NCBI GenBank assembly: GCA_051313645.2
Contig: JBNRSN020000107.1
Span: forward strand, 2,232,001 to 2,296,000
Source of the DNA: Centroscyllium fabricii
Lineage: Eukaryota
Length of the DNA: 64,000 nucleotides
Reading direction: 5' to 3'
Within the stretch, counting starts at the first letter, position 1; each line of letters starts with the position of its first letter. The position numbers and the translations under genes were made by a program. The notes beneath the pieces are model-generated. The model was not told the DNA's origin. It saw only the letters and a list, made by a program, of their open reading frames with translations, and made no database searches. Shown one piece after another: positions 22,666-53,950 of this stretch.

Positions 22666-23007
22666 CAGGTACAAAATCCTTTATCCGCAACTCCGAAAAC
22701 CGAAAAGCTCCAAAAACCGAAGAACGTTTCGGAGCACAAACCTAAATCTAATCGGGGCCTGAGGCCTACACCGGGTTTCCAGCCCACCCGCGGGTACAAT
22801 TCCTCCCCGAGCCCACAATCTCCTACCGCCTCCCGGGAGCGTCTCTTCCAATTCAGCGGACAGCCCTGCGCATGCGCAGAGCGCCGTTCCGCGCCTGCGC
22901 ACTGGGCCGCCGACACGGCAATGCTGGGCACCATCCGAAAACCGAAAAAATCCGAAATCCGAGACCCGTCCGGTCCCAAGGGTTTCGGATAAAGGATTGT
23001 GTACCTG
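22666..23007. mobile_element. pogo/Tigger4-like MITE with CpG-rich interior
   Basis: TIRs CAGGTACA(A/C)AATCCTTTATCCG, TA on both sides, subterminal CCGAAA repeats as in Tigger4/MER46 ends. Confidence 0.85.
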
Positions 23008-23149
23008 TATGATGACTGTGACTCCAAATTTAATGAGGTCCAGGAATGCTTGGGCAGAATATGAAGACAAAATCTTAAAAAGTATGAAAAAGATTGATAA
23101 GAAATTCAGTGATATTATCTGAGAATCAAGTGACTTACTTTGTTCCTAT

Positions 23150-24318
23150 AAACAGAAAATGCTGGAAATACTCAGCAGGTCAGGCAGCATCTGTGGAGAG
23201 AGAGACAGAGTTAACGTTTCAGGTCGATGACCCTTTGTCAGAACTGGAGAAAGCTGGAGATGGAACAGGTTTTAAACAAATGCAGGGCAGGGAAAGGAGG
23301 GAGGGAGGAAAGGACAAAAGGGAAGGTCTGTGATAGGGTGGAAGGCCGGAGAGATTAAATGACAAAAGTGATGATGGTGCGAGGCAAAAGGAGATGATCA
23401 TGAAACAAATAAACAAAAGATAGGTCTAAAGGAGGTGTGTAAATGGGAATAGCAGAATCATCAACAGCTGCCGTCTGCAAAAATGGAGGCAGAGGTTATG
23501 GTCTGAAATTGTTGAACTCACTGTTGAGTCCGGAAGGCTGTAAAGTGCCTATTTGAAAGATAAGATGTTGTTCCTCGAGCTTACGTTGAGCTTCATTGGA
23601 ACAGTGTAGGAGGCCGAGGACAGAGAGATCGGAGTGGGAGTGCAGAATTAAATTGACAGGCGACCGGAAGCTCAGGGTCATGCTTGCAGACTGAACGGAG
23701 GTGTTCCGGCAAGCGGCCACCCAATCTGCGTTTGGTCTCCCCAATGTAGAGGAGACCGCATCGTGAGCAGCGGATACAATATACTAACTTGCAAGAAGTA
23801 CAAGTAAATCGCTGTTTCACCTGGAAGGAGTGTATGGGGCCCTGGATGGTGGGAAGGGAGGAGGTAGAAGGGCAGGTGTTGCATCACCTGTGCTTGCACG
23901 GGAAGGTGCCGTGGGAAGGGGAAGGGGTGTTGGGGGTGATTGAGGCGTGGACAGGGTTGAGAGATGTCACGGAGGGAAGGGTCCCTTCAGAATGCTGAAA
24001 GGGGAGGGGAAGATCTGTTTGGTGTTGGCATCACGCTGGAGGTGGGGGGGAATGGCAGAGGATGACCCTTTGAAAGTGGAGGCTGGTGGGGTGGAAGGTG
24101 AGGACAAGGGGAACCGTGTTGTGGTTCTGGAAGGGAGGGGAAGGGGTGAGAGCATAAGTGCGGGAAATGGAACGGACCCGGTTGAGGGCCGTGTCAACCA
24201 CGGTGGAGGGAAATCCTCGGTTGAGGAAAAAGCAAGACATATTGGAAGCACTGGTATGGAAGGTGGCATGGTCGGAACAGATGTGACGGAGACTGATAAA
24301 CTGGGAGAATGGAATCGA
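23150..24318 (-). mobile_element. Penelope-like element 3' fragment (GIY-YIG endonuclease)
   Basis: QRFTCTSCKLVYCIRCSRCGLLYIGETKRRLGGRLPEH and VPLVLTFHP; terminal region carries a hammerhead-like motif. Confidence 0.85.
23209..23245 (-). ncRNA. Minimal type I hammerhead ribozyme, core mutated
   Basis: AGTT-CTGACAA-AGGGTCATCGACCT-GAAA-CGTT-AACT; CUGAnGA core reads CUGACAA. Confidence 0.5.
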
Positions 24319-25273
24319 ATCGTTACCTTGTTCCTCAGGTTTTTGCTAAAATATGTAGGCTGAACTATCTTATAGGCTGCACTGCAGTTTCCATGCACTT
24401 CAACTACTTACAGCATTTACACTGGATTTACGCCAATATCTACTCCAAATGAGCTGACCCAGGAAACTGTAGTGTAAATGCCTCTTCAAACCACTGGTGG
24501 GTACAGATATTTTTCCATTGGTGTAACAGCAGCACAGATCCCTGTAAGAAAATTAATCCCAGTGATACCATCTTTACAGGAAGAGTCATGAGTTAGACTT
24601 TAATCTTCAGCGACTGGGCATAATCTGACGGACCGAATCGCCCGCCCTATATCGAACCCGCACGATTTTCATTCCATTGAAATTAGTTGGTCCACTCGGC
24701 AAAATTACTGACAAAGCAGTGAAGATGAACATTTACCCTAGGGATCCCAGTAAATGACACAGAATTTACAGCACAGAAACAGGACATTCGGCCCAACCAG
24801 TCTCTGCTGGTGTTTATGCTCCACACCAGCCTCCTCCCATTCTCTATACTTCATCTCAACATATCCTATCTCTCTAACTTATCTGGCAAGCTATCCCCTT
24901 AATCCTTTCTCCCACATGTTTATCCAGCTTCCCCTTAAATGTATCGATACTATTCACCTCAACCACTCCCTGTGGGAGCGAGTTCCACATTCTCACCACT
25001 CTCTGGGCAAAGATCATTGAAGAGTTTTAGGGGAGATGGCTCTCTGCCAATCTTCTATGCATACATCCACAGAAAAAGGCACTTTGCATAAACAGACCCA
25101 TGTACATTAGATTCTGAAACTAGCAAATTTGCATGTGACATGAAGGGAATAGTACGCCACATGATTAACAATTACCCTTTTTATTGCCTACTCTTGCAGA
25201 TTGTGAAGGCTGCCCATCATGCTCTCATGCCCATCCAAAAGGTAGAAACATATTGTTCAGGTCAATACTAATA

Positions 25274-26031
25274 CAGGTGGAGCACCGGTAATCTGGCACC
25301 CTCGGGACCAGGCCGGTGCCGGACCATTGAAAATTCCGAACCACTGAAGGTTCTCGCCCTCCAGTTCCATCATGACCAAATGAACACTCGGGGAATTAAA
25401 TTTGAATTTCGCAAAGGAGAACGAGTCCTCTGCTCCGAGCCAGACCCAACAAAGGCCAAGGTTTTATACGATGCCAAGGTAGCGGCGCGACTCTTTGAAT
25501 TGGTGCAGCTCCGGTTTCCACCGATTGCCTCAAACACACACCAGAGGCGGCGGCGGCTGGGGGGCCCGGGGAGCGAGATATGGGGGTGGGGGGTTCACCC
25601 TCATCCGAGCTGCACCGTCTTGCTTAGTCAAATAAAGCGGCTTGTGTCACCTGGCCTAGTTGGTCGTGGTTGTTAATCAGTATTTCTCTTTCACCTCTGC
25701 CTCCGTTTTTGCAGATAAACCTAATGGGTAGAACACTCCCCGGGGCCTGGAGCGCGCAGGTAGAACACTCCCCGGGAGGGAGCCCAGGGATAGAACGCTC
25801 CCCGGGGCCTCGAGCGCGCGGGTAGAACACTCCCCGGGAGGGAGCCCAGGGATAGAACACTAAAAAGCAGAAATCCCAACCCTCGACGCCTTTGGTGCTC
25901 GCCCACCCTTCACGGGAAACCGTGGCACCGCCGAGCGGCTGCTCCGCAAACTGAGGACCGTCGGTTTCCATTCGTGCCGGACCACTGAAGGTGCCAGACC
26001 ATTGGGTGCCGGATTACCAGTGCTCAACCTG
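25274..26031. mobile_element. pogo/Tigger-like non-autonomous element carrying a captured gene fragment
   Basis: 28-bp TIRs CAGGTGGAGCACCGGTAATCTGGCACCC / CAGGTTGAGCACTGGTAATCCGGCACCC (3 mismatches); TA at 25272-25273 and 26032-26033. Confidence 0.9.
25380..25478 (+). pseudogene. MSL3: Captured first coding exon of MSL3 (chromo-barrel N-terminus)
   Basis: [33 protein letters not shown] followed by AAG|gtagcg; matches vertebrate MSL3 ...[24 protein letters not shown]; no further MSL3 exons recognised in the window. Confidence 0.85.
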
Positions 26032-26750
26032 TAGTTGAATTTACCAAAAACAAGGTTATATAAGCTAGCTAAATCTAGTGGGAAGATAGAAGATCGGGAA
26101 GCTTTTAAATGTCAGCAAAAAATAACAAAAAGATTGATTAAGAAAGGGAAGATAGATTATGAAAGTAAATTAGCAAAAAATATAACAACAGATAGCAAGA
26201 GTTTCTATAGTTACATAAAAAGAAAAAGGATGGCTAAAGTAAATGTTGGTCCTTTAAAGGATGAGACCGGGAAATTAATGGTAGGGGACATGGAGATGGC
26301 AAAAGCGCTGAACAAATATTTTGTATCAGTCTTTACAGTAGAGGACACTCAAAATATCCCAACAATGGATAAACAGGTGGCTCTAGGGGGGGAGGAGCTA
26401 ATTACGATTAAAGTCACTGAGGAAGTGGTACTCGGGAAAATTATGGGACTTAAAGAGGATAAATCCCCTGGACATCCTAGGGTCTTGAGGGAAGTGGCGG
26501 TAGGGATTGTGGATGCATTGGTAATCATTTTTCAAAACTCTCTGGACTCGGCAAAGGTTCCGGCAGATTGGAAAACTGCTAACGTAACGCCTTCATTTAA
26601 AAAGGGTAATAGACAGAAGGCTGGAAATTATAGACCAGTTAGCCTAACATCTGTGGTTGGCAAAATGTTAGAATCCATTATTAAGGAAACAGTAACAGGG
26701 CATTTGGATAAACATAATTTAATAGGACAAAGTCAGCATGGTTTTACAAA

Positions 26751-27148
26751 TAATGTGGAGGTGCCGGTGTTGGACTGGGGTGGACAAATGCAAGAAGTCA
26801 CACAACACCAGATTATAGTCCAACGGTTTTATTTTAAATCACAAGCTTTCGGAGCTTCTGCTCCTTCCTCAGGTGAAAAAGACTGACTTAAAGAACGCAC
26901 ATGTGCGATGAGGAGAGAAATCTGATATCCCCCCCATCTCACCTCCATAGAGACAGACATATAAAAGCTTATTAACATATTTTAAGTGTTACATTTAAGC
27001 ATAGCACATATAGAGAGAGATAACAATGTGGTCTCTCCAGTTGTTTCACATCACACCTCAGCTGAGGGACATCAAAGCAGTCACAGACTTTCCAACATAT
27101 CAAAGGTTCCAGTCACCAAGGGTCAAATGTTAGTCTGCTTTAAATCCC
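26751..27148 (-). mobile_element. Penelope-like terminal repeat fragment
   Basis: Shark Penelope-end sequence (GGTGCCGGTGTTGGACTGGGGTGGACAA...) also at ~39770-39862 and ~52260-52378; short inverted copy at ~29756-29789. Confidence 0.6.
26839..26876 (-). ncRNA. Minimal type I hammerhead ribozyme
   Basis: TCAC-CTGAGGA-A-GGAGC-AGAA-GCTCC-GAAA-GCTT-GTGA: intact CUGAnGA/GAAA core, stem I TCAC/GTGA, stem II GGAGC/GCTCC, palindromic AAGCTT. Confidence 0.7.
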
Positions 27149-29714
27149 CCGCGTAGTCGGAGGCGTCGGTGGTGAGCGCCACCTTGGCGTTGGGCCGTGG
27201 GTGTGCGAGCAGGGTGGCGTTGGCCAGTGCAGACTTGGTGGAGTCGAAGGCGGCGGAGGTTTGCGCCGTCCATTCGACCGCCATTTTGCCGCTCTTCCCG
27301 CGGAGGGCTTGGTAGAGGGGGCCCAGGAGGGATGCCGCTTTAGGGATAAAGCGGTTGTAAAAGTTCACCATCCCGAGGAACTCTTGGAGGCCCTTGATGG
27401 TGGTGGGCCGGGGAAATTGCTGGACGGCCTGCACCTTGGTGGGCAGGGGAATGGCCCCGGCCTGGGTTATGCGGTGGCCGAGGAAGTCAATCTGGTCGAG
27501 ACCGAACTGGCACTTGGCGGGGCTGAGGATGAGGCCGTGTTCGCTGAGGCGCGTGAACAGGGCCCTGAGGTGTTCCTGCTTGGAGGAACTGGCTACCAGG
27601 ATGTCGTCTAGGTAGACGAACAGGAACTTCAGGTCCCGTAGGACCGAGTCCATGAGCCGCTGGAACGCCTGCGCCGCATTTTTGAGGCCGAAGGGCATCC
27701 GCAGGAACTCAAACAGCCCGAAGGGAGTGATGACTGCGGTCTTGGGGATGTCGGCGGCGTGGACGGGGACTTGGTGGTAGCCGCGCACCAGGTCGACTTT
27801 GGAGAAGACTGAGCACTTGGCCAGTCTGGCCGAAAAGTCCTGGATGTGCGGTACTGGGTACCGATCTGGCGTGGTGGCGTCGTTGAGGCGCCGGTAATCC
27901 CCGCAGGGGTGCCAGCCCCCGTCGGGCTTGGGGGCGATGTGGAGTGGTGAGGCCCAAGGGCTGTTGGAGTGGCGGATGATGCCGAGCTGCTCCATGGTGG
28001 CAAACTCGTTCCGCGCGATCTCCAACTTGGCTGGGTCTAGCCTGCGGGCGTGGGCGTGCACCGGTGGGCCGGTGGTGAGGATAAAGTGTTCTACCCCATG
28101 CTTGGCTACCTTGGCGGTGAAGGTCGGGTTGGTGAGGGCCGGGAATTCGGGCAGGAGTGCCGAGTAAGCGTCTGTGGCCCGGGCATGGCACTGTGCGGTC
28201 ATGTTGGCGGGCTGGGCAGGGGCCGTGGCGCCTGGGATGGGGGTCATGGAGTTGATGTCCACGAGGCGGCGCCGGGGCATGTCGACCAGCAGGCCGTGGG
28301 CACATAGGAAGTCTGCGCCGATGATTGGCGAGAGTATCTTGGCGGTGAGAAACTCCCACGTATAGCAGCGCCCTGCGAGATGGAGTTGGACCGTGCGGGT
28401 GCCGTACGTCCGGATGTCGGACCCGTTGGCCGCGGCAAGTGCCGGGCCTCGCGTGCCTGTTTTGATTTCGAGGGCGGAGGCGGGCACAATGCTATGCTGG
28501 GCCCCGGTGTCGCAAAGGAAGCGCCGTCCGGTTTTGCCATCCGTGACGTACAGGAGGCATCCAGCGTGCCCTACGGACATGGTGGGGGCTGATGTATGTG
28601 CGGGCTTGAAGGTGCAGGGTTGCGTGCACCGTTGCGCCCTGGCGCCGAACCGGGCGTGGTAATAGCAGTACCCAGGATTCGGCGGGTTTGGGGAACGTGG
28701 CGGTCGTGTGGGCCTGGGGGCTGGTCCTGGCGACCGCGTGGTGGGAGTGGCTGGTCGCGCCGTGGCGGCGGCTGCCAAGTCCGCGGTGCCGTGGCCCTGT
28801 GGTCCCGCCATCAGCCTGTCGGCCAGGCTGGCTAGGTCTGCCAGATTCTGGAGGTCGGACGCAACGATGGCGGGGCGGATGCTGGGGGGAAGCTGCTGTA
28901 TAAAGAGCGTCCGGAAGAGGGATCCCGGAGGACTCTCGTCCGTGAGCGAGAGCATGTGGGAGAGGAGGCGCGATGGTGAAGCGTCACCGAGGCCCTGGAG
29001 GGCAAGGAGCTGGCTGCAGCGCTGGTACTGGGAAGTAGTGAACCTTTTAAGGAGCGCGGCCTTAAGATGTGTGTACTTGCCCTGCTGCGGTGGATTCTGC
29101 AGCTCTGCCCAGACTTCCGTCACCGTGGAGCTCCCCAGTGAAGCGATGAGGTAGTCGTACTGCACGTCTTCTTTGTTGACCCGGTGTAGTCTGAACCGGG
29201 ATTCTGCCTGAACAAACCAGGCTTGGGGCTGATGTACCCAAAACTCAGGCAGCCGGACCGCGGCTGTGCTTGCGTCCACCATCATGGTGTTCGGAATGCG
29301 TTCCAAACGTCGGGGTCACCAATGTTGTGTTCGCTGGTGGGCGAAAGAACTCCTGAGACCGAGTAACAGCAAACAACCTTCTTTATTTGTTCACATTACA
29401 GAGTGTGCGTTTTCGCGCCCTTGCGCTCGAATAAGTAGCCCCCATGAAGTCATTACGCATGAGCCCGATGACGTCGGCGCGTCTGCGCGTTGGTGCATGT
29501 CGGGCGCGTTGTGCGCATGCGCGGGGACGTCTTTGCGTCGGCACCGGCCTCGGGAGAGCAGCGCACCTCGGGGCCGGTGCCTCCAGAGCGCGTTGTGCGC
29601 ATGCACGGGGGCGTCTTCGCGTCGGCCTCGGGAGAGTAGCGCACCTCGGGGCCGGTGCCTCCAGGGTCCATGAGTCCGGCGGATTCGCCGGTAAGTCTGT
29701 GGCGATCCGCCACA
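27149..29714 (-). mobile_element. 3'-truncated Ty3/Gypsy element (5' LTR 29323-29714, PBS, open gag-pro-RT-partial RNase H)
   Basis: 392-bp LTR TG...CA; PBS TGGTGACCCCGACGT (tRNA-Trp); 727-aa ORF 27123-29306 with CDTGA, YLDD, breaking off after TTDASDYAG. Confidence 0.93.
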
Positions 29715-30330
29715 ACATCATGATTTTTTAAAAACCAGGATTTTTCTTACTTAAAAACTATAATCTGGTGGTGTGTGACTTCTTGCATTTGGTTTTACAA
29801 AGGGGAAGTCATGTTTGACAAATTTGCTAGAGTTCTTTGAAGACATAACATACAGGGTAGATAAAGGGGAACCAGTGGATGTAGTGTATTTAGACTGCCA
29901 AAAGGCATTTGACAAGGTGCCCCACAAAAGATTATTACTCAAGATAAAAAATCACGGGGTTGGGGGTAATATTCTGGTATGGGTGGAGGATTGGCTTTCT
30001 AACAGAAAACAGAGAGTTGGGATAAATGGTTCGTTCTCAGACTGGCAGTCAGTCACTAGTGGTGTTCCGCAAGGGTCGGTGCTGGGACCCCAACTCTTAA
30101 CAATCTATATTAATGATTTGGAAGAAGGGACCAAGTGCAACATATCAAAGTTTGCGGATGACACAAAGATGAGAGGGAGGGTGATGAGTGAGGAGGACAT
30201 TAAAAACCTGCAAAAGGACATAGATAGGCTAAGTGAGTGGGCAGAGATTTGGCAGATGGAGTATAATACTGGAAAGTGTGAAGTTATGCACTTTGGCAGG
30301 AAAAATAATAGAGCGAGTTATTATCTAAAT

Positions 30331-30367
30331 CATAGGTCTCCAACCGCCGGTCTGCTGGGGACCACTG
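30331..30367. mobile_element. 37-bp miniature hAT (Charlie-like) element
   Basis: 8-bp TSD ATCTAAAT (30323-30330, 30368-30375); ends CATAGGTCTCCA / TGGGGACCACTG; sister CR1 copy near 3110 has the empty site. Confidence 0.75.
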
Positions 30368-32765: not shown

Positions 32766-33600
32766 CTAGCTGCAACAGGACCTGGACGACATCCAGGCTT
32801 GGGCTGATAAGTGGCAGGTAGCATTCGTGCCACATAAGTGCCAGGTAATGACTATCTCCAACAAGCGAGAGTCTAACCACCGCCCCTTGACATTCAACAG
32901 AATTACCATCGCCGAATCCCCACCATCAACATCCTGGGGGGTCACCATTGACCAAAAACTTAACTGGACCAGCCACATAAATACTGTGGCAACAAGAGCA
33001 AGTCAGAGGCTGGGAATTCATGTGCGAGTGTTTCACCTCCTGACTCCCCAAAGCCTTTCCACCATCTACAAGGCACAAGTCAGGAGTGTGATGGAATACT
33101 CTCCACTTGCCTGGATGAGTGCAGCTCCAACAACACTCAAGAAGCTCGACACCATCCAGGACAAAGCAGCCTGTTTGATTGGCACTCCATCCACCACCTT
33201 AAACATTGACTCCCTCCACCACTGGCGTACCGTGGCTGCAGTGTGTACCATCTGCAAGATGCACTGCAGCAACTCATCAAGGCTTCTTCGGCAGCACCTC
33301 CCAAACCCGCAACTTCTTCCACCTAGAAGGACAAGGGCAGCAGGCGCATAGGAACACCACCACCTCCAAGTTCCCCTCCAAGTCACACACCATCCTGACT
33401 TAGAAGTGTATCGCTGATTCTTCATCGTCACTGGGTCAAAATCCTGGAACTCCATCCCTAACAGCACTGTGGGAGCACCTTCACCACACGGACTGCAGTG
33501 GTTCAAGAAGGCAGCTCACCACCACCTTCTCGAGGGCAATTAGAGATGTGCAATAAATGCTGGCTTTGCCAGCAACGCTCAGATCCCATAAATGAATTCT
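32766..33600 (+). mobile_element. CR1-clade LINE 3' fragment
   Basis: LQQDLDDIQAWADKWQV, IYKAQVRSVMEYS, tail AATAAATGCTGG... Confidence 0.8.
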
Positions 33601-33609
33601 AAAAAAATT

Positions 33610-36151
33610 GTGGCCTTAGCACCACTCTCTAACGCCATTATGGTGCTAAAACAGCAGCCGCCGCTCATTCACCAGCTGCTGGCGGTTCCCGCGGCAGCTG
33701 CCGTTTCCATCCTTACCTTTACGTTGCTGGTAACTGGCAGCGTCATGCTGGACAAAATGGTGGCGTTGTGATGTAAATCCGCCTGCAATGACGACTTAAC
33801 ATCACAAGCGCGAACTTCGACCCTAGTCAGCGCTGGGTCTTAAGCATGACAGGTTAACCTGGCATGCAAGCAGACTGACAGTGGCGATATCTGCACCTCT
33901 TAAGGGGACACACATATCGTTCAGCTAAGTTAGGATTTAAGGATTGGAACTGTTTTTTATATTGCTTGCTGCAATAGATGTGAAAAGTTTTTTTAAGTGT
34001 GTAGGGAGTGCTGCTGGATGCTTGCAAGGGCTCGGATGGTTAAATGAAGGCCTTTAATAAGACAGAAAATGCTGCAAATAATCAACAGGTCAGGCAACAT
34101 CTATGGAGAGAAAAACAGAGTTCACATCCCGGGTCAAGATGCAGCCTGACCAGCTGGGTATTTCCAGCATTTTATGCTGTCATTTCACCTTTACAACATC
34201 TGCTCGCAGTGGGAAGAGAAGGACACAGACGAGGAGGAAGCAGAAGAGGAGGAATCAGATCGAAGGATGCATCCCAGACAGCCCCTTTGTGGTCGGGATA
34301 TCCGGGATGGAATCATCCGTCTGCGGTTCCAGTGACCACAACCCCAATTCCCCTTTCAACATTAGTCCCACACCTTACCTTCCATCTGTTACTGACCATC
34401 ACAGTGTCCTCTTGGCCATGATGCTGAAATAAAAGCCACCACAAAGCAAACTTTCCAATCCACCTATATAAGTCTATCCATCCAATGTGACTCCAAGAAA
34501 TCATCACCTGAATGTATTCTCTGAGAGATTGTCTTGTGTGTGTGTGCCTTTGCCTATCCTACTGATATCACGCAGTGCTACCCCAGTGGCTGCAGCATGG
34601 CTGGTGGAAGGCTGCTGACTTTCAGTGGGGGACACTGCAAATGGCTTTGCTGGTTGACCTTGAGGAGCTGGCGGCTAGGCTTGTCAAATCAATCATCTTT
34701 TTCACTCTCCTCTGACTCTTCTGGATCACCCATTGGCTGGGCAGGCTGCATTTCTGGGTCACCCACGGGCTGGGCAGGCTGCATTTCTGGGTCACCCACT
34801 GGCTGGGCAGGCTGCATTTCTGGATCACCCACGGGCTGGGCAGGCTGCATTTCTGGATCACCCACGGGCTGGGCAGGCTGCATTTCTGGATCACCCATTG
34901 TCTGGGCAGGCTGCATTTCTGGATCACCCATTGTCTGGGCAGGCTGCATTTCTGGGTCACCCACGGGCTGGGCAGGCTGCATTTCTGGATCACCCACTGG
35001 CTGGGCAGGCTGCATTTCTGGATCACCCACTGGCTGGGCAGGCTGCATTTCTGGGTCACCCACTGGCTGGGCAGGCTGCATTTCTGGGTCACCCACGGGC
35101 TGGGCAGGCTGCATTTCTGGGTCACCCACGGGCTGGGCAGGCTGCATTTCTGGGTCACCCACGGGCTGGGCAAGCTGCATTTCTTGGGTGCGTGAAATGA
35201 GGAAGGCACAAGGGTGGAGTTGTGGTGATGGGAGGGCGGGAAAGCATGAGGTCCATGCCAGAAGGAGAATCACGTGTGAGGATATCAGCATCTTGTGTCC
35301 TTTCGGCCCCGCTGGTGGCCAGAGGCTCAGCTATGCTCCTGCCAAGAATGGCCGGCACCATCTCCTCCAAGGATGTGAGGTGAGTCTAGGAATGGGAGTT
35401 GTGCCTCGTGTTTGGTACAGATTGTTGGTGATTGATTGGGGGTTATGCAATGAGCAGTGTGTGAGGCTAATGGTGCAGTTGGTAGGAGACGGCTTTTGAA
35501 GATGCATTCACTGACTCTGACCAGTGGTCTGAGGTCATGAAGCTTCTTTGGGCAATGGAGCCAGGTGATAGGGGGTGACACTGTTCTTTCTGGAGGGCCT
35601 CCTGGCCCCAGTGGGTAGAGGGCCTGTCTTGCAGTGTTGACCCCCGGCACAAAGCTGGAGTAATGCGTGCGAGACCCTCAGTGACCCTTCTCTGGCTTGC
35701 TGAGCAAATTTGTGTTAGTGCAGAGGCATTTTTCCCATTTTCTGAGGTTAGAAAGGGAATTCAGCTTTAAGAGCTGAATATTCATATTTGGGACTTTTTA
35801 ATGTTAAATATTTGTTTAAACGGCTGAAAACGACATTGTTCCACTTCATTTTATTTTGTATTGCTTCAGTGTGCATGGCCCCTTTAATTCTCAGACCTCT
35901 TCATTGCCCACAATTCCTTGCGAGCTCCACAGCCTTGCTTCCGGAGGCTGTGGGAAGCTGCAACGCTGCTCCTGTACATGAACTTCAGGTCGGATGCTCC
36001 AGTAACGCCACCAGGACTGCATTGCACGGAAGGTAAACGCTGTGCCAACAATCTCCATCCGCCCAGATTAATTTTGCTCCGTTAGCATTGCGGCCATTTT
36101 CAGCGACTGTTAACACCAGCAACGTTACTGGCTAAAATGAATTTCTCCCCC
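33610..36151 (-). mobile_element. Decayed Harbinger element with Myb/SANT-like gene remnant
   Basis: ITWLHCPKKLHDLRPLVR resembles the Myb/SANT-like motif RTWxQCRKKFNDL; MEEMVPAILG segment; terminal AATTTCTCCCCC. Confidence 0.55.
34720..35181. repeat. 33-bp minisatellite, 14 copies
   Basis: Unit TCTGG(A/G)TCACCCA(C/T)(G/T)G(G/T)CTGGGCAGGCTGCATT; minus strand reads (QPVGDPEMQPA)n. Confidence 0.97.
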
Positions 36152-39642: not shown

Positions 39643-39772
39643 GCAAGCGGAGGGAAACGGAAACAAGCTCCAGTTTTTCAGGCTTACAGCAGTCTAACCA
39701 GCAAAAATTACCTGTAATCATCTCGCATTGATCTCTGACTATATATGTTGTGCCTATGTGCATCTCTTCACT

Positions 39773-40519: not shown

Positions 40520-41237
40520 CCATACATTTCTCCAACACCTTTCACAACCTCAGGATGTCCCAAAGCACTTTACAGCCAATGAAGTACTTTTTGAAGTGTC
40601 GTCACTATTATAATATAGGAAATGCGGCAGCTAATTTACACACAGCAAGCTCCCACAAACAGCAATGTGATAATAACCAGATAATCTGTTTTTTATATTG
40701 ATTGAGTGATAAATATTTGCCAGGACACTGGGGACTCCCCTGCTCTTCTTTGAAATAGTGCCATGGGATCTTTTACGTCCACCCGATAGGGCAGACGGGG
40801 CCTCAGTTTAACGTCTTATCTGAAAGACGGCACCTCTGACAGTGCAGCACTCCCTCAATACTGCCCCTCCGACAGTGTGGCGTCCCTCAGTATTGCCCCT
40901 CCGACAGTGCGGCACTCCCTCAGTACTGCCCCTCCGACAGTGCGGCACTCCCTCAGTACTGCCCCTCCGACAGTGCGGCACTCCCTCAGTACTGCCCCTC
41001 CGACAGTGCAGCGCTCCCTCAACATTGCCCCTCCGACAGTGCGGCACTCCTTCAGTATTGCCCCTCCGACAGTGCAGCGCTCCCTCAGTATTGCCCCTCC
41101 GACAGTGCAGCGCTCCCTCAGTACTGCACTGGCGTGTCAGCCTCGATTTTCGTGCATCAAGTCTCTGGAGTGGGATTTGAACCCACAGCCTTCTGACCTA
41201 GAGGTGGGAGTGCTGCTCACTGAGCCACAGCTGACAC
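40520..41237 (-). mobile_element. Deu-domain/SacSINE-like SINE with an internal tandem expansion
   Basis: Same family as ~42975-43280, ~58150-58460 and ~59920-60320; tRNA-like head toward 41237. Confidence 0.7.
40830..41125. repeat. 33-bp minisatellite, 9 copies, inside the SINE
   Basis: Unit GCCCCTCCGACAGTGCGGCACTCCCTCAGTACT (one unit is 32 bp). Confidence 0.95.
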
Positions 41238-44994: not shown

Positions 44995-45890
44995 ACAGGA
45001 ACAGGAGGAGGCCATTTAGCACGTCAAGCTTGTTCCGTCATTCAGTGAGATCATGGCTGATGTGCGTCCTAACTCCATCTACCCGCCGTTGCCCCATATC
45101 CCTTCATAATACCTTTGGTTAACAAAAAAAATCAATCTCAGATTTAAAATTAACAATTGATTGAGCATGCAGGAGAGTTCCAAACGTCTGCCACCCGAGA
45201 GTTCCAAACGTCTGCCACCCTGTGTGTAGAAGTGTTTCCTAACATCACTCCTGAAAGGTCTGGCTCTAATTTTTAGATTATGCCCCCAAATCCAAGACTC
45301 CCCAACCAGCAGAAATAGTTTCTATTTTCCCTTAATATCTTGAAAACTTTCACCTGATCACCCCTTAACCTTCTACATTCCAAGGAATACAACCCTAATT
45401 TGTGTAATCTCTCCTCGTAACTTAACCCTTGAAGTCCGGGTATCATTTTGGTAAACCTACGCTGCATTCCCTCCAAGGCCAATACAGGTTGAGCACCGTT
45501 AATCCGGCACGGTCGGGACCAGGCCCGTGCCGGAAAAGTGAAAACTCCGAACGATTGAAGCTTCGGCGAGCGCAGACCATTCAAAATGGCCACCGCGAAA
45601 GGCTGGCGGCCATTTTGAATGGTCTGCACATGCGCTCATCGTTCGGGAAGGCCCAGGCATGCGCAGCCAAGCGCAGCGGCCATTTTGTGCATGCGCAGAT
45701 CAGTCGGCCGGATTCGTTCCAGACGACTGAAGTTGCCAGATTAACGGTGCTCAACCTGTATATCCTTCCTACGGTGTGGTGCCCAGAACTGCTCACAGTG
45801 CTCCAGGTGTGGTCTAACCAGGGCTTTGTGTAGCTGCAGCATAACCTCTACCCCCTTGTATTCTAGCGCTCCAGATATAAAAGCCAGCAG
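44995..45890 (-). mobile_element. CR1 LINE 3' fragment, split by the 45485-45758 element
   Basis: LALEGMQRRFTKMIPGLQGLSYEERL; sequence rejoins across the insert as ggccaaTAtatcc. Confidence 0.8.
45485..45758. mobile_element. pogo/Tigger-like MITE, same TIR family as 25274-26031
   Basis: TIRs CAGGTTGAGCACCGTTAATC(C/T)GGCA, TA duplication inside a CR1. Confidence 0.88.
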
Positions 45891-46143
45891 AGCTTGGTCT
45901 TGGATTGACAGGAGGAAGCCCTACCATTGTGCGCCTAGAAGTTCTGCACTGTAAAAAGGAGAATTATTTGAACACCTCTCATGCCACAAGCTTAACCTGC
46001 ATTGTGACTTTTCCGCCATTCAAGATAGATCAAAATGCATATTACTCATTCTGAGCACTGTCCTGATGGACTGTATGCAGGGGAAAATTGGCATCCACAA
46101 AAATCTCCTGTCACAGATGTGAACCAACAATTGGGACAGATGC

Positions 46144-46859
46144 TGAAGTGGGGCTTTCGAGCTCGACTATAATTAAAGGGTTAGGAATGGGAATCGAATG
46201 AGCTAAAATGCCTTTGCAGTAGTAAGCTTTTTCTAAGTTGCAGAACTGGCAGTTGAGATAAGCTAAGAATGACTTGATTTTGCAGTAGTGTTAGAATGAT
46301 CGACGACTACAAGCTGTGTGACTTGGAGACAACCCCAAATAGCCGAATGTTGAACCAGAAGAGGCCTAGAGGATGCAAGTTCTGCTGTGGCAGGAAAGTA
46401 GAACAATGAGTTGGAAGTAAAAAGGCCGAGAGGGGCAGGAAAGTAGGACAATGAGTTGGAAGCAAAAAGGCCGAGAGGGGCAGGAAAGTAGGACAATGAC
46501 AATGTTGGTGAGACCCCACCTGGCATAAACAAAGGTCATCGTTGCAACAACAGCTTGCTGTGATAACGGACATATACTTTTCCGGTAATAAAGGCAGTAC
46601 CTTAATGTAACACGGCATAGGCAACCAATCAGTAAATGTGCACACGGGACAAAACCCAATCAAATTGTTAAAATGGATCGTGCACAAGGCTAATTATGTA
46701 CCAAAATTGTGTATAAAAGACTGCTTAAAACTTTGTATCATCGAAGAGAAACCTGGCTGGACAGATGGCAGGTTGTCTCCCCACCGGTGCGAATAAAGAC
46801 TGCTTGAATCTTCGAACACAGACCTGGTGTCGAGTGTTTATTTCAAATACTCCACTTCA
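46144..46859 (+). mobile_element. Solo LTR, ERV-like (716 bp)
   Basis: TGAAGTGG...CCACTTCA termini, 5-bp TSD GATGC, 45-bp U3 repeats at 46390-46499, CCAAT ~46625, TATAAAA 46712-46718, AATAAA 46792-46797. Confidence 0.88.
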
Positions 46860-46973
46860 GATGCCAACTTGCATCTTCCAGTCAATATCTCAGATCTGCC
46901 TTGAAATCTACAAGTTTTGCATTAAAAATGAACATTGATAATGGAACATAAAGTATTTGATACAGCACTTCAT

Positions 46974-47094
46974 TTTATTTAATTGATTTGAGACTAGTTA
47001 CAGAAGTGTAAGTGACATTTTCCCCAATTAAACCACTTTAGAAGTTAAAAATTAAATTAAAAATGTTTGATTTGGTATAAAGGCAAATTTTATT
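46974..47094 (-). terminator. Candidate NANS polyadenylation signals
   Basis: AATAAA on the minus strand at 47089-47094 and 46974-46979, in the AT-rich sequence downstream of the stop codon. Confidence 0.5.
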
Positions 47095-47147
47095 ATTGGC
47101 TATTTAAATTCCATAATCTCTAGTTCTTTCACCGCCTTTGTGTAAAC

Positions 47148-47363
47148 TTAGGACTTTACGCTGCGTTTTTTGCTGCAGTTTTCAACCACGTCATGTGTGA
47201 TCGTTTCATCTGCATCTATGTTGGCTTTAACTCTCTTCCCCACCAGCTTAAAGATGTCGTCTGGTTCAATACCTTTGGGTTCTGCCACCTTCACAGTCAT
47301 CATATCCAGAGTCAGTGCTGTTCCTGCTGGAATAGTCACCTGGGCTACTATCGATTTTCTCAG
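47148..47363 (-). CDS. NANS: NANS final coding exon (antifreeze-like/SAF domain)
   Basis: tttgtag|CTGAGAAAA...TAA; LRKSIVAQVTIPAGTALTLDMMTVKVAEPKGIEPDDIFKLVGKRVKANIDADETITHDVVENCSKKRSVKS*. Confidence 0.95.
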   Translation of the reverse strand: MRKSIVAQVTIPAGTALTLDMMTVKVAEPKGIEPDDIFKLVGKRVKANIDADETITHDVVENCSKKRSVKS

Positions 47364-47443
47364 CTACAAAGACAAAATAAAAAGAATATTTTAACCACTA
47401 TAAGGCAGCGTGCAATATGTATGTTACAAGCTCCCTACACACT

Positions 47444-48149
47444 GGGCCAGAAATTCGGGTTGGAGGCTTCCCACGAGTGCAAGCCTCCAACCCACACTTA
47501 CGGAGCGCGCCGGCCATTCACCAATGCACCCGCATGGAATTCCGATGCGGGGCCCTCCTGAGATGCCGGCGCGCTGTGCTGCTGCATCTGAGCGTCGCAG
47601 TTAGTGCGAAGCTTCCCGCGGGATCACGTGATCCATGGGGGAGCCAATCGGAGCACAGAATGCTCCGTTCATAAGTTTGACAGGAAGCCCTGTCAAACTT
47701 ATGAATACTACAACCCCAAAAATCACAAAATCTTAAAATATTTTTTTTTTTAATCATTTTTAAAATAACTATCAATTACACAAATTGGCTATTTTAAACA
47801 AAAATTAAAAATTTTGAAAAAAATATTTAAAGTATTTAACAGGGCTAAAAATCAACTTACCTTTATTTAAAGTATTTAAAAATGAAAAACCTGTGGAAAA
47901 AAGTCTTTAGACTTAGGCTGAAATCCACTCTTTGTGCTTGAAATATCAGCCATAACCTTTTCAAATACTTACACTGATAAAAACCTGTAAAAAAATCGGA
48001 AGTGCATTACGCACCCACGTTCCAACCCCTGACCTTTCAGGGGATCGGAATTGCCGGTTTCGCGCGCATGCCAGAACCCGGCAATTCCGATGGGCCGACG
48101 CGCGAGTACACCGTCCGTGCTCACGCGTTGGGCCCCGAATTTCTGGGCC
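47444..48149. mobile_element. Harbinger-like non-autonomous element in the last NANS intron
   Basis: TIRs GGGCCAGAAATTCGGG ... CCCGAATTTCTGGGCC. Confidence 0.75.
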
Positions 48150-48513
48150 ATTATACTAACTGAAGTCATTTATAATTCCGTGGGAAGACAGCTGATCAAA
48201 AACGATAGCGTACTGCCACTAATTTCTTCATCATTCTGACTATTTTCATACCAGTCATTTGTTAAAAGAGCCAACGCCCCTGGAATTGTTAATTTCTCAT
48301 GCATCTGCATGGCAACAGGTGATAAAAGATTTTAAACCTAAAAAATCCATTGTAGAACAGTCTAAACTTTCTTTCCTTGCCTGCACAAGATGGTACTGAA
48401 TAATCCATTAGTACTCAAGTAATAACACAGCAATAAAAAACAAGCTTTGAACACTTGTTTAGGCTTGATTTTATTCTTTGACACTCTACCAGAACTGTCC
48501 GAGTGTAAGTTAC

Positions 48514-48780
48514 CTTGTTGTGGCAGGCCATCTCACAGGGCAGCAGGTGTTTGATGGAAGACCCAAATGCCTTCTCCACAGTACGGATCGAGCGGACCAG
48601 TTCTCGCAGCTCATCGGGTTCCAGGGAAGCTTGGTGGTCGTTGCCCTTCCAGGTTTTGTCCATGGTCACGTGACGCTCCACAACTTTGGCTCCCATAGCG
48701 ACTGCTGCTATGCTGACAGCAATTCCAGTTTCATGACCAGAATATCCAATAGGAATATCTGGAAATTCCTTCTTGTATTC
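48514..48780 (-). CDS. NANS: NANS coding exon 5
   Basis: 267 nt; EYKKEFPDIPIGYSGHETGIAVSIAAVAMGAKVVERHVTMDKTWKGNDHQASLEPDELRELVRSIRTVEKAFGSSIKHLLPCEMACHNK|gtaact. Confidence 0.95.
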
Positions 48781-49109
48781 CTGGAATTAGGAAGAAAAAA
48801 AACTTAACATCCATCTGCAGGACATAGACATGATCTCCTTTAACTTTGGCCATTTTGTCTTTAACCAGATGTAGTTTGCCAATCAGCAGCAATGTTGCCA
48901 TCAGAAATGTTGTTTGCATGGAGCAAAAATGTCTTGTAATGCTCTGCACTTCTGCTGGGAATTCAGGACATTAACTTTTTAACAATACAGACAGAAAACA
49001 ATAGGAATTAGTTTTACTTCTGAACATCAGTTCTGTCAGGGCCTCAGAAGTGTTCATGGTTTGTAACATTAAAGCTCATTCCAGTCCTTTACAATATTAC
49101 GCAGTGAAA

Positions 49110-50170
49110 TAAGAGCAGGAATCGGCCATTTGGCCCTTTGAGCCCGCTCCGCCATTCAATGAGATTACGGCTGATCTTCTACCTCAGCTCTACCTTCCCA
49201 CATATCCCCATATCCTGATTCCCAAAAATCTATCGACCTGTCTTGAATATACTCAACGACTGAGCATCCACAACTCGCTGGGTAGAGAATTCCAAAGATT
49301 CACAACCCTATGAGTGAAGAAATTCCTCATTGCAGTCCTAAATGGCCAACTGCTTATCTGAGACTGTCCCCTCATGTTCTAGGTTCCCCAGCCAGGGGAA
49401 ACATTTTCCCAGCATTAACCCGGTCAAGCCCCTTAAGAATTGTATGTTTCCATTAGATCACCTCTCATTCTTGTAAACTCTAAGGAATATAGGCCTGGTC
49501 GACTCAATCTCTCTTCATAGGGCAGGAACCAGTCTACTGAACCTTCGCTGCACTCCCTCCAAGGCAAGTATGTCTTTCCTTAGGTAAGACCACCAGAACT
49601 GTAGACAGTACTTAAGGCGTGGCGTCACCAATGCCCTGTTACTACCTATAATTGTAAGACTTCTTTACTCTTATTAGGTCTAATCCCAATTGCTTGCTGT
49701 ACCTGCATGTTAACTTTGTGATTCATGAACAAGGACACCCAGATCCCTCTGAACACCAACATTTCCCAGTCTCTCACCATTCAAAAACTATTCTGCTTTT
49801 TTGTTTTTCCTCCCAAAGTAGATAACTTCACACTTCCTACATTGTATTCCATTTGCCACAAGAAATAGGAGCGGGAATAGGCCACTTGGCCCCTCGAGCC
49901 TGCTCCGCCATTCAATAAGGCCATGTTTGTGCCCAGTCAGTCAGTCATTCATTCATTCAGTATCTCTCTGCAGCCTCTTTGCGTTCTCCTTACAGCTTAC
50001 TTTCTCACCTAGCTTTGCATCAGCAGCAAACTTGGATACGTTACACTCAGTCCCTCATCTATGTCATTAATACCCTGCTAGTTACAGCCTGCCAACCCAA
50101 AAAAGTCCAGTTTATTCAGACTCTTATCCATTAACCAATCCTCAATCTAATCCAACATATTACCCCCAAT
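49110..50170 (-). mobile_element. Decayed CR1 LINE 3' part
   Basis: Reverse-complement CR1 RT/C-terminal sequence and tail, heavily mutated. Confidence 0.7.
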
Positions 50171-50658
50171 CCCACTGGGGAAAGAGCAGTGAGAGTGGGA
50201 CTAACTGGACAGCTCTTCGAAAGAGCTAGCACGGACTCGATGGGCCGAATGGCTGGAGCGGTGAACTTATTAGCATTTATAAAAAGTGGCTGCTCTATAA
50301 CTGAGAAACAGCCCTGCCTCTTCATAGGAGCTTTGCATCACCTCCAAGTTATTGCCAATTCAAAAAGCAGTCCGCTGTAAGGAAAGAAAATTAGTAATAG
50401 ATTAAAATTATGTACCCTTCCTAAAGTGTGCTAAAAGCTGCAGGATCTTGCTCTAGAAATTCAGATAATACAGATAGCTGCAGAACAACGAACTGGTTAT
50501 TGGCTGGGGCTTTACAGGACTCAGGAGGACGTGGTCATGTTCAACTTGGTCCAGTAGAACACATTTCTTGGGCAAGCTCTGTACGATTTCCCTCGAATCA
50601 AACACGCTCGGCTCAGCTCCGGTGGCGGCCCGGGGTGGGGGAAAGTGTGTGAAGGATA

Positions 50659-51005
50659 GGGCGGCACGGTGGCATAGTGGTTTGCACTGTTGCCTCACAG
50701 CGCCAGGGGCCCGGGTTCAAATCCAGCCTCAGGTGACTATCTGTGTGGAGTTTGCACATTCTCCCCATGTCTGCGTGTGGAGTTTGCACATTCTCCCCAT
50801 GTCTGCGTGGGTTTCCTCCGGGTGCTCTGGTTTCCTCCCACAGTCCAAAGATGTGCGGGTTAGGTTGATTGGCCAGGATAAATTGACCCTTAGTGTTAGG
50901 GCGATTGAATGTGTGGGGTTACGGGGATAGGGTGGGATGTGTGTCGGTGCAGGCTCGATGGGCCGAAATGGCCTCTATCTGCACTGTAGGGATTCTATGA
51001 TTCTA
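50659..51005 (+). mobile_element. HE1-type SINE
   Basis: A/B-box tRNA head, central domain with a short internal duplication, tail (ATTCTATG)n. Confidence 0.88.
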
Positions 51006-51329
51006 AGTGAAGAACACCCCCCAGCATTCCTTAATCATTACAATGATGAAACGGCTGGAATTCGATGGTGATATTTATGTAGTTCATAGCCAGTTCCATC
51101 TGGAAGATGCACCTTACCTGCTACAAAGGCAGCTCAACAACTGAAGTGTGTCATCTTCAAATTACTCAAGGGCAATAAATGCTGGCCTTGCCAGCGACAC
51201 CCAAATTCCCATAACTGAATAGTAAAATTAAAAAATAAGTGCCAGAGTTGAGTTTCTAGTGCTATTACTTTCAATGGACTTCCTCTTACTGAGAGCATTC
51301 TGTTCACAGGAACATAAAACAGTAAAATA

Positions 51330-53950
51330 TTAACCATCAATAAAAAGGTTGGGATGGGAATAGGGCCATTATGGGATAGACATGATAATACCACAGGTAA
51401 CGATAGAGAGACGGCAGAAATATTAAATAATTACTTTGCTTCAGTATTTACCAGGGAGATGGAACAGGTGGACCGGACATCAGATGATGAGATTAGTGCA
51501 TTTAAAATAAAGAGAGGGGATATGTAAAATAAATTAATCAAACTCAAAGAGGATAAAACCCCTTGCATCCACACATTTAAAAATAATCTAGGGAATAGAT
51601 AGCAGAGGCATTACTACACATTTAATAATTCATTAGAAAAAGGTATAGTGCCAGAGGACTGGCAGAGAGCTAACAGAATACAGGTACACAACCCTATCCG
51701 AAAACCTCGGGACCGGGCGGGTATCGGTTTTCGGATAATTTCGGTTTTTAGAGTTGGCTCAGTGCGCATGCGCATTGCAGTGTTTGTGGCCCAGTTAGCA
51801 GTCGGAATATATACGAAATATCCACGAAAATAACTTTACCAAACATGACATTTACCAACATACAACGACAGTCCCTTTTCAATTAGTTTTAAACAAAGCG
51901 CAGAATCGTAGAGTTATGTACTGATTCTCCCACAGGCCCGGGAATATAGACAATTCATTCGGAGGAATATCCGTGTCGTACCTTGGTGGAAAGATTACAC
52001 AAGTGAAACCGCGGGTTGTGGTGAGCAGGACCGGTGACGCGGGCCGCGCAGCTGGGACAATCGTTGCCAGGGAGACGCATAGCCTCGGCTCACATGGCGC
52101 GAGTGCGCGCACTCTACAAGCGGGAACGGCATATCGGCCACAAGAACAGAAAACGCTGGAGAAACTCAGCAGGCCAGGCAGCATTGGTGGAGAGAGGAGC
52201 AGAGTTGACGTTTCAGGCATATCGGCCGTTTGGAACAGGAGATCGGCCGTTTTTTCCTGATGTGGAGGTGCCGGTGTTGGACTGGGGTGGACAAATGTAA
52301 GAAGTCACACAACACCAGGTTATAGTCCAACAGTTTTATTTGAAATCACAAGCTTTCGGAGCGCGGCTCCTTCCTCAGCACGGCATCAACAGCACGAACT
52401 CGAGGTAAAAACATATTTTTTCTGCTGCAGCTGGTCATTTCCTTCAATTTATTTAAGAAAAAAATGGTTATTTTGGCACAACCCTGGACTTCGGTTTTTG
52501 GAGTTGCGGATAAAGGATTGTGTACCTGTACCGATATTGAAGAAGGGGGATAGAACATGTCCAGAGAATTATTGACCAGTCAGCTTAACATCGGTGGTTG
52601 GAAAAATAATGGAATCCCTACTAAAGGAGAAAATCGAAGAACATTTAGAAACGATAATAATGAATAGTCAGCGTGGATTTCCAAAAGGGAAAACCTTACT
52701 TGACCAACCTTACTGAATTTTTTGAAGAGGTAACAGAGAGAGTAGACAAGGGTAATGCAGTAGATGTAATTTATCTGGATTTTCAAAAGGCTTTTGATAA
52801 GGTACCCCATAATAGACTGGTGAACAAGGTCAGAGAATGTGGAGTCAGGGGACAAGTAGCAGAATGGATTGCTGGCTGGCTTCAGGACAGAAAGCAGAGA
52901 GTAGGAGTAAAGGGTAGCTATTCACCGTGGCAGAAGGTGGGTAGTGGTGTTCCACAAGGATCAGTGCTGGGACCACTGCTGTTCACAATTTACATTAACG
53001 ATTTAGATTTGGGAATCAAAAACACAATTTCTAAATTTGCAGATACCACCAAAAACATTTTGGGGGGGGGGGGAAATAGTCGATACCGAGGAGGATTGCA
53101 ACAAATTACAGGAGGACGTTTATAAACTTGCAAAATGGGCAAATAATTGGTAAATGAAGTTCAATGCAAAAATAATGTGAGGTATTACATTTTGGTAGTA
53201 GGGTGGTCACTTATCGCTTGGAGGTGCAAGTCTAGGTTGGGTAGAGGAGCAAAGGGATCTCGGAGTACAAATACACAAATCACTAAAAGTTGCAACACAG
53301 GTTAGCAAGGCCATAAAAAAAGGCAAACCAAGCACTAGGGTTTATTTCTAGAGGTATAGAATTGTAAAGTAGGGAAGTTATGCTAAACCTGTATCGAACC
53401 TTGGTTAGACCAGACTTGGAGCACTGCGTACAGTTCTGGTCTCCATATTATAAAAAGGATATAGAGGCACTGGAGAGGGTGCAGAGAAGATTTAGAAGTA
53501 TGTTACCAGAAATGCATATTAGGAAAGGATGAACAGGCTGGGTCTCTTTTGAAAAAAGACTGAGGGGTGACCTAATAGAGATCTTTAAAATTATGAAAGG
53601 TTTTGATAGAGTGGATCCAGAGAGAGTGTTTCCACTTGTGGGGAAGAGCAAAACTAGAGGCCATCAATATAAGATAGTGACCAAGAAATGCAATGGGGAA
53701 TTCAGGAGAAACTTCTTTCCCCAGAGAGTGGTGAGAATGTGGAACTCGCTCCCACAGGGAGCGGTTGAGGCGAATAATATCGATACATTTAAGGAGAATT
53801 TAGATGAGGGAGACGGGAATTGAGTGTTCTACTGATAGGTTGAGATGAGGAAGGATGGGAGGAGGCTCGAGTGGAGCATCAATGCCGGCGTGGACTGGTT
53901 GGGCCGAATGGTCTATTTCTGTGCCGTATAGTCGATGTAATTCCATGTAA
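51330..53950 (+). mobile_element. Decayed CR1 LINE (same family as 1-9445), split by the 51681-52528 element
   Basis: Collinear with 1030-1745 and 6160-9440; [25 protein letters not shown]. Confidence 0.88.
51681..52528. mobile_element. pogo/Tigger4-like element with composite cargo
   Basis: TIRs CAGGTACACAA...TATCCG, TA duplication; the sister CR1 at ~1405-1420 shows the empty site gtaaTAccgata. Confidence 0.88.

What the first reader, a model, noticed from the sequence alone, without database searches (positions are those of the whole stretch)
22666..52528. Four related Tigger4-like elements, each with different CpG-island-like cargo: a possible promoter/5'-exon capture system
Seen: elements at 22666-23007, 25274-26031, 45485-45758 and 51681-52528 all start CAGGT, are TA-flanked and share a subterminal GGGACC(A/G)G...CGGA block. 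They fall into two TIR subtypes, yet their interiors are unrelated. All interiors are CpG-rich against a CpG-poor background. Two contain a perfect TGCGCATGCGCA (22867-22878, 51763-51774) and one is packed with GCATGCGC and AAAATGGC/GCCATTTT. Known: these are the NRF1 and YY1 motifs of housekeeping promoters. Inference: the family repeatedly fills its interior with open-chromatin gene 5' ends, for example by gap repair with template switching, and disperses them. Four variants in 30 kb would imply many genome-wide. I know of no description of this in sharks but cannot check.
Basis: partly seen in the sequence, partly recalled or inferred. Interest (0 to 1): 0.75.

Follow-up and report, generated by a model that had tools for sequence, protein, structure and literature searches.

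The report
Shark mini-transposons amplify captured gene starts
Four small cut-and-paste transposons lie in this stretch of a likely shark genome; two carry copied starts of host genes (MSL3 and SDHAF3) that were spread to hundreds and to over a thousand sites, an unusually large scale for this known kind of gene capture in animals, and the copies are decaying, likely without function.

Summary
The four TA-flanked elements are real non-autonomous Tigger/pogo-type MITEs, each from a dispersed family. Capture is shown for two. E2 carries 5' UTR, coding exon 1 and intron start of MSL3 (TIR-free parent on another contig; 223 candidate copies). E4 carries the 5' region and first 15 codons of SDHAF3 (single TIR-free parent; 1,499 candidates). 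No parent was found for E1 (two searches). E3 looks like an internal hairpin/repeat variant and had no dedicated parent search.

The NRF1-like motif and CpG richness also occur in cargo-free backbones, and the interiors are partly related. Copies decay like methylated passengers: CpG transitions 6-11 times background, MSL3 exon dN/dS 1.03, SDHAF3 start codon lost in 30 of 30. A transposase-bearing relative (DD32D) matches the type-A ends.

This is a high-copy variant of animal Pack-TIRs that works like the 5'-capturing bat Helitrons. A 5' bias is suggested, not established. The scan already noted this family and the MSL3 cargo in this genome, and similar cases in other sharks and a ray.

The parts
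22666..23007 (-). E1: type-A MITE, inverted relative to E4; TIRs, NRF1-like repeat arm and a core of about 125 bp of unknown origin
   Evidence: 2,298 first-look candidates; 29 of top 30 with both TIRs; no TIR-free parent among 15 and 16 junction-pattern hits
25274..26031 (+). E2: type-B MITE carrying MSL3 cargo
   Evidence: 223 candidates; 23 of 30 with both TIRs
25359..25718 (+). Captured MSL3 segment: 5' UTR, coding exon 1, start of intron 1 (family cargo 406 bp = parent C335:32586364-32586769, minus strand)
25380..25478 (+). MSL3 coding exon 1 (33 codons), followed by the GT donor at 25479-25480
   Evidence: PF22732 E=2e-8; human MSL3 chains E=5e-11; processed copy joins exon 2 at this point
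25719..26031 (+). B-type backbone: short junction piece, internal tandem array, right arm and TIR; shared with cargo-free copies
45485..45758 (+). E3: type-B MITE variant whose interior is a hairpin plus repeated NRF1/YY1-like units; no host parent known
   Evidence: (2,457 candidates); 5 of 30 sampled B elements are of this type
51681..52528 (+). E4: type-A MITE carrying SDHAF3 cargo, inserted at a TA in a LINE fragment
   Evidence: 1,499 candidates; 28 of 30 with both TIRs
51681..51805 (+). A-type left arm with the NRF1-like 12-mer (51763-51774); shared with E1 and cargo-free copies; first about 75 bp related to the 3' end of the transposase-bearing element L308
51811..52123 (+). Captured SDHAF3 segment: about 269 bp upstream of the start codon plus 15 codons; start codon mutated at 52079-52081 (parent C933:166488893-166489206, plus strand)
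52142..52378 (+). Two pieces of other very common repeats, separated by backbone; one also lies about 310 bp downstream in SDHAF3 intron 1
   Evidence: depth tables

Best explanation
These are non-autonomous Tigger/pogo-type MITEs, and two of the four carry pieces of host gene starts (MSL3, SDHAF3) that were likely copied in by template switching during DNA gap repair and then multiplied, likely by a transposase acting in trans. Shown: TIRs, TA duplications, dispersed copies, TIR-free parent genes, retained intron in the MSL3 cargo, a recurrent entry point just inside the left arm next to an internal tandem array (MSL3, MAM-like, L181-type and C856 cargos in type B), nested and recombinant cargos, and neutral decay. 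Inferred: the repair mechanism (from 2-3 base microhomologies read by eye and from the Pack-TIR literature), which transposase moved them, and a preference for open-chromatin 5' ends. Each cargo traces to one founder event followed by amplification; it is not a new capture per copy. E1 and E3 are best read as backbone variants, possibly with older, unrecognised captures.
For: MSL3: exon 1 and 241 bp of intron 1 match the true gene, whose exons 2 and 3 lie 8.5 and 16.5 kb downstream; the family majority differs from the parent at 31 of 406 columns. SDHAF3: a junction-negation pattern gave exactly 1 genome hit, TIR-free, 289/314 identical to the family majority, continuing into an intact LYR exon and donor. 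In runs X3 and X5, which show no cover of the A-type arms, single contigs hold the same 313 bp and the intact start codon. A third cargo has a TIR-free parent at C856:6700012 (92%). Cargo-free backbones: 15 of 30 B and 14 of 30 A sampled (by eye). Type-A ends match a 595-aa CENP-B_N/HTH/DDE_1 element. Decay: CpG transitions 6.0-11.1 times other C/G transitions; dN/dS 1.03 in 48 MSL3 exon copies; SDHAF3 start codon lost in 30 of 30.
Against: No parent for E1, E3, the MAM-like cargo, the L181-type cargo or the second cargo of the MSL3 subfamily. No transposase with exact B-type ends among 50 of the 150 listed DDE_1 loci. The A-type relative has degraded ends, and its three copies share flanks, so it may not be the mobiliser. 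No A-type end was found within about 40 kb either side of the SDHAF3 start. The B element about 600 bp upstream of the MSL3 breakpoint is of a different subfamily, so a cis donor is not shown. Microhomologies were not tested against chance.
Confidence: 0.8

Rival explanations
1. The family is a promoter-capture system in the strong sense: all four interiors derive from gene 5' ends, and promoter cargo helps the element spread or gives copies promoter activity.
For: Both named parents are first coding exons in CpG-rich DNA. The C856 parent has a donor-like boundary (by eye). Bat Helitrons show such a bias (PMC4224331). 32 of 48 MSL3 copies keep start codon, an exon free of stops and deletions, and donor (insertions were not scored).
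Against: NRF1-like motifs and CpG richness are backbone features. About half of sampled elements lack cargo. The MSL3 cargo starts only 66 bp before the start codon, so it holds little promoter. CpG decay is 6-11 fold and dN/dS about 1. A MAM-like cargo with 1,505 candidates looks like an internal exon.
Confidence: 0.15
2. The cargos entered as RNA-derived (retroposed) inserts into resident MITEs and were then amplified.
For: A processed MSL3 fragment exists in the genome. The SDHAF3 cargo lies within a stretch held by probable RNA contigs (RNA is a guess there). LINE/SINE insertions into these MITEs are frequent.
Against: The MSL3 cargo keeps the exon 1/intron 1 boundary and 241 bp of intron. 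No poly-A tail or flanking duplication is visible at either cargo. Cargos end in mid-exon or mid-intron.
Confidence: 0.04
3. All interiors are deletion derivatives of autonomous Tiggers or other repeats, with no host capture.
For: True for part of the family: 6 of 30 sampled A elements resemble the ends of the autonomous element (for L221, the others by eye), and E4 contains other repeats. May hold for E1 and E3.
Against: The E2 and E4 cargos match single-copy protein-coding genes.
Confidence: 0.01

Closest known systems
Animal Pack-TIRs (Tan et al. 2021, PMC8277862; abstract, sections 7, 8, 9, 14 and passages read; supplements not read)
   Same: Host DNA between the TIRs of one cut-and-paste element, TIR-free parent, short microhomology, distal multicopy spread; includes Pack-Tigger1 in gibbon and a frog hAT carrying the CAPSL 5' UTR.
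   Different: There only four multicopy cases were found (370 Pack-TIRs in all), and the frog example has three copies; here single cargos reach hundreds to over a thousand candidates, with nested and recombinant cargos. 'Shark' does not occur in its main text. Its filter for a unique best hit could miss high-copy families (my inference from section 14).
Bat Helitrons, e.g. HelibatN3 with NUBPL promoter, exon 1 and intron start (Thomas et al. 2014, PMC4224331; passages read)
   Same: Vertebrate DNA transposons capturing promoters, 5' UTRs and first exons, amplified to thousands of copies, with sequential capture.
   Different: Rolling-circle elements; the elements here are TIR/TA cut-and-paste MITEs. 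The 5' bias was measured there and is only suggested here.
Rice Pack-MULEs (PMC5861414; passages read)
   Same: Non-autonomous TIR elements that preferentially duplicate GC-rich, open-chromatin gene sequence.
   Different: Plant Mutator superfamily with 8-11 bp target duplications; about 40% transcribed. Expression of the shark copies is untested.
Tigger family of pogo transposons (PMC7386202, PMC9219625; passages read)
   Same: TA duplication, short TIRs, CENP-B_N + HTH_Tnp_Tc5 + DDE_1 transposase with DD29-36D spacing; present in cartilaginous fishes.
   Different: The passages read describe autonomous elements and domesticated genes, not cargo-bearing MITEs.

Membership tests
Pack-TIR (E2, E4) | Non-TE sequence of 100-5000 bp between the two TIRs of one element | tested here: met
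   360 bp MSL3 and 313 bp SDHAF3 segments
Pack-TIR (E2, E4) | Unique parental locus without flanking TIRs, about 90% identical | tested here: met
   Family majorities about 92% to parents; window copies 86% (with gaps) and 89.5%, so borderline copy by copy
Pack-TIR (E2, E4) | DNA-level capture, not a retrocopy | tested here: met
   Met for MSL3 (intron kept); SDHAF3 cargo crosses no splice site, so it cannot tell
Pack-TIR (E2, E4) | Independent transposition of the loaded element (distinct flanks, target duplication) | tested here: met
   Different flanks; TA on both sides in 19 of 23 (E2) and 21 of 28 (E4) paired copies; empty paralogous site for E4
Pack-TIR (E2, E4) | Breakpoint microhomology beyond chance | tested here: inconclusive
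   2-3 bases at one junction each, read by eye; no simulation
Pack-TIR (E1) | TIR-free parental locus | tested here: inconclusive
   0 of 15 and 0 of 16 junction-pattern hits were parents; such patterns miss diverged parents
Pack-TIR (E3) | TIR-free parental locus | tested here: inconclusive
   All top 30 matches have one or both TIRs; no dedicated parent search; no Pfam hit
Tigger/pogo MITE | TA target duplication and short TIRs | tested here: met
   49 of 50 paired sampled elements end in TA
Tigger/pogo MITE, type A | Ends shared with an element encoding CENP-B_N/HTH_Tnp_Tc5/DDE_1 transposase, DD29-36D | tested here: met
   L308: both ends match; three Pfam domains; DD32D counted from the translation
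Tigger/pogo MITE, type B | Ends shared with a pogo transposase element | tested here: inconclusive
   Only bases about 18-65 match the 3' end of a pogo family (L303, L307), whose outer TIR differs
Tigger4 specifically | Phylogenetic or sequence placement with mammalian Tigger4 | not tested
   No named TE library; nearest proteins are 'jerky-like' in skates and mammals at 70-75%
Helitron gene capture | Rolling-circle element without TIRs (definition recalled) | tested here: not met
   TIRs and TA duplication present; works like it, not a member

The most novel reading that the evidence does not exclude
Shark Tigger MITEs form a promoter-mimicking lineage: their arms build tandem NRF1/YY1-like arrays and preferentially load first exons from open chromatin, and such loaded founders out-transpose empty ones. 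Tens of thousands of portable promoter and first-exon modules were thereby scattered, some now driving chimeric transcripts.
Probability: 0.15. Interest if true: 0.8.

Novelty: new variant of a known kind. Interest (0 to 1): 0.5.

Why it matters
Multicopy gene capture by cut-and-paste transposons was reported as rare and low-copy in animals. A shark genome with several cargos at hundreds to over a thousand copies gives a large natural sample for testing where and how TIR elements acquire host DNA (5' bias, fixed entry point, sequential capture), and whether cargo affects amplification. Practically, these copies create false MSL3 exon hits (140 partial Pfam matches besides the processed copy, nearly all to exon 1) and could mask real first exons if repeat libraries are built blindly.

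Tried and rejected
Parent of E1: two junction-negation patterns returned only element copies (0 of 15, 0 of 16). Laying reads of other organisms on E1 could not be done, so that test is open. Parents of the MAM-like cargo (11 pattern hits; 3 examined, all element copies, the other 8 judged by their listed letters) and the L181-type cargo (20 of 44 hits examined): not found. Second cargo of the MSL3 subfamily: 30 of 30 top loci are elements, and one of six further places is a TIR-free partial match within another repeat. Naming the C856 gene: no Pfam hit over cut-off in 22 unmasked frames. Pfam scan of 149 of 192 stop-free cargo frames: nothing over cut-off; best MAM E=0.006. C933:166639444 as the MSL3 gene: rejected, it is a processed copy. 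SDHAF3 exon 2 was not within 40 kb downstream. No listed holder is on record as RNA, so expression of copies is untested. Local origin of E4's repeat piece from SDHAF3 intron 1: 98% identical, but 7 of 29 hits score as high (two are that same place), so undecided. The 60 sampled elements were classified by eye, and no chance estimate for the 12-mer was computed. Sequence look-ups in earlier findings gave nothing.
Full report
Observation. The window is G000:C80:2232001-2296000 of a 7.2-Gb genome. The closest SDHAF3 proteins are from sharks (88%, 74%, 72%), so I call it a shark by inference. All four elements are at the stated coordinates, TA-flanked, with short imperfect TIRs of two subtypes. 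The shared subterminal block is at one end only, and E1 is inverted. CpG o/e is 0.79-1.16 against a window median of 0.47, but 21% of bins exceed 0.8. A paralogous LINE copy at window 1400-1430 lacks E4 and has one TA, and the LINE frame continues across E4.

Families. Each interior is multicopy: first-look candidates 2,298 (E1), 223 (E2), 2,457 (E3) and 1,499 (E4). Only 40 were scored each, and candidates are not copy numbers. Of the top 30 matches (window copy included), 29, 23, 25 and 28 have both TIRs; 21, 19, 17 and 21 of those have TA on both sides. Exact 34-base left ends occur 8,962 (B) and 5,696 (A) times, control 0. Only two of the four window elements fit these patterns exactly, so the family likely numbers tens of thousands (inference). 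Ten scattered 10-kb stretches held one element.

E2 carries the start of MSL3. Window 25380-25478 encodes 33 residues matching PF22732 and human MSL3, followed by GT. The best Pfam locus proved to be a processed copy. It led to the true gene on C335: exon 2 at 32578031, exon 3 at 32569851. E2 bases 86-445 match exon 1 and intron 1 there at 319/371. Across the family the cargo is 406 bp: 66 bp of UTR, 99 bp coding, 241 bp intron. It sits in an otherwise ordinary B backbone, with a 3-base microhomology at the left junction (by eye). A subfamily of about 40 carries a second 436-bp insert inside the MSL3 piece; its source is unresolved.

E4 carries the start of SDHAF3. In runs X3 and X5, which show no cover of the A arms, single contigs match 51811-52123 at about 94% and are longer than the match; all four runs laid read G at 52081, which gives an intact start codon (these runs are only guessed to be RNA). 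A pattern of cargo end plus non-backbone letters gave one genome hit: C933:166488893-166489206, TIR-free, 289/314 identical to the family majority. It runs into a 58-codon LYR exon and a donor, named SDHAF3 by 7 of 9 homologues. The rest of E4 is A backbone plus two common repeat pieces. Two copies (L077, L079) join the SDHAF3 half to the right half of another subfamily, which points to recombination between family members.

E1 and E3. E1's NRF1-like arm is shared with E4 and with cargo-free A elements. Parts of its core recur in other subfamilies. Two parent searches returned only element copies. E3 is a hairpin with repeated units that expand in tandem in other copies. Neither shows capture; an old capture is not excluded.

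Sample. I took the first 30 exact matches of each end pattern on contig C1 (biased to perfect left ends) and classified them by eye. B: 15 cargo-free with tandem array, 5 E3-type, 3 L181-type, 2 C856-type, 1 MAM-like, 4 other or mosaic, 0 MSL3. A: 14 cargo-free, 6 resembling autonomous-element ends, 3 L213-type, 3 L200/L222-type, 2 E1-like, 1 SDHAF3, 1 interrupted. Several B cargos enter at the same point, about 78-82 bp from the left end. The C856-type cargo has a TIR-free parent (92% over 354 columns) in an unnamed locus. The MAM-like cargo has 1,505 candidates and, if real (E=0.006, under cut-off), is an internal exon, which counts against a strict 5' rule.

Transposase. DDE_1 gave 1,715 candidates, 150 listed; I examined 50. 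The top 30 are one family with related but different TIRs. L308-L310 have A-type ends. L308 encodes 595 residues with CENP-B_N, HTH_Tnp_Tc5 and DDE_1, DD32D by my count, within the Tigger range given in PMC7386202. These three copies share flanks and have worn ends, so they are relatives, not proven mobilisers. For B only a subterminal match was found.

Fate of copies. CpG transitions exceed other C/G transitions 6.8-fold (MSL3 cargo, 51 of 53 loci aligned), 11.1-fold (SDHAF3, 30), 6.0-fold (E1 core, 30) and 6.5-fold (E3, 30). In 48 copies covering the MSL3 exon, dN/dS is 1.03 (113 N, 29 S); 46 keep the start codon, 43 the donor, and 32 all features. The SDHAF3 start codon is absent in 30 of 30. 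These sets are the copies closest to the window's, so biased young. This fits methylated, neutral passengers; expression is untested.

Mechanism. Most likely (0.8): a break in or beside the internal tandem array of a MITE was repaired by switching template to host DNA and back, and the loaded founder was then multiplied by a Tigger transposase. The cargo, parents, entry point and amplification are shown; the repair step follows the models in PMC8277862 and is inferred.

Known and new. This fits Pack-TIRs, where only four multicopy cases were reported. It works like bat Helitrons, which amplified promoters and first exons to thousands of copies, and like rice Pack-MULEs. Seven literature searches (listings only, apart from the five papers cited) showed no description in sharks. 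The library lacks most subscription papers and repeat databases, and I did not read the supplementary species list of PMC8277862. Earlier notes of this scan describe this family and the MSL3 cargo in the same genome, and similar cases in other sharks and a ray; they are leads, not support. Not seen in those note excerpts: the SDHAF3 parent, the A-type transposase relative, and the finding that the motifs are backbone. Verdict: new variant of a known kind, interest 0.5.

Noticed in passing
window 14649-19099; related copies 27123-29315 (-) and 62147-64000 (+): Young LTR retrotransposon with 248-bp direct repeats 98% identical and protease-like/RT/RNase H/integrase matches; accounts for much of the window's other CpG-rich DNA.
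   Followed up: partly
G000:C933:166639422-166639604 (L031/L135): Processed MSL3 fragment (end of exon 1 joined to exons 2-3), 98-99% identical to the gene, lying 150 kb from the SDHAF3 start; probably coincidence.
   Followed up: partly
L190:1311-1455 (G000:C1:43106796-43106940): B-type cargo with a weak MAM-domain match, 1,505 candidates, same entry point as the MSL3 cargo; parent not found.
   Followed up: partly
L414 (G000:C856:6700012-6700370): TIR-free parent of another B-type cargo (249 pattern hits), with a donor-like boundary on the minus strand; gene unnamed.
   Followed up: partly
L029:1030-1465: Second 436-bp insert nested inside the MSL3 cargo in about 40 copies; its middle part matches another repeat.
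   Followed up: partly
L218, L222 (G000:C1:47210566, 62004831): A-type cargo with RFX X-box-like motifs (name recalled) expanded into a tandem array; parent not sought.
   Followed up: no
L077, L079: Recombinant A elements joining the SDHAF3 half to another subfamily's right half through a shared repeat piece.
   Followed up: no
G000:C335 about 32587370-32587851: An E3-like B element lies about 600 bp upstream of the MSL3 capture breakpoint; not the subfamily that carries the cargo.
   Followed up: partly
L308-L310 (C823, C800): Tigger-type transposase (595 aa, open frame in L308) 70-75% identical to 'jerky-like' sequences of skates and of several mammals, a pattern that might reflect horizontal transfer; the copies share satellite-like flanks.
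   Followed up: no
window 34620-35279 and 40850-41160: Two 33-bp tandem arrays; no Pfam match for the 324-residue frame over the first.
   Followed up: no
window 29513 and 61879: The shorter NRF1-like 10-mer also occurs at these two places outside the four elements, in related repeats.
   Followed up: no
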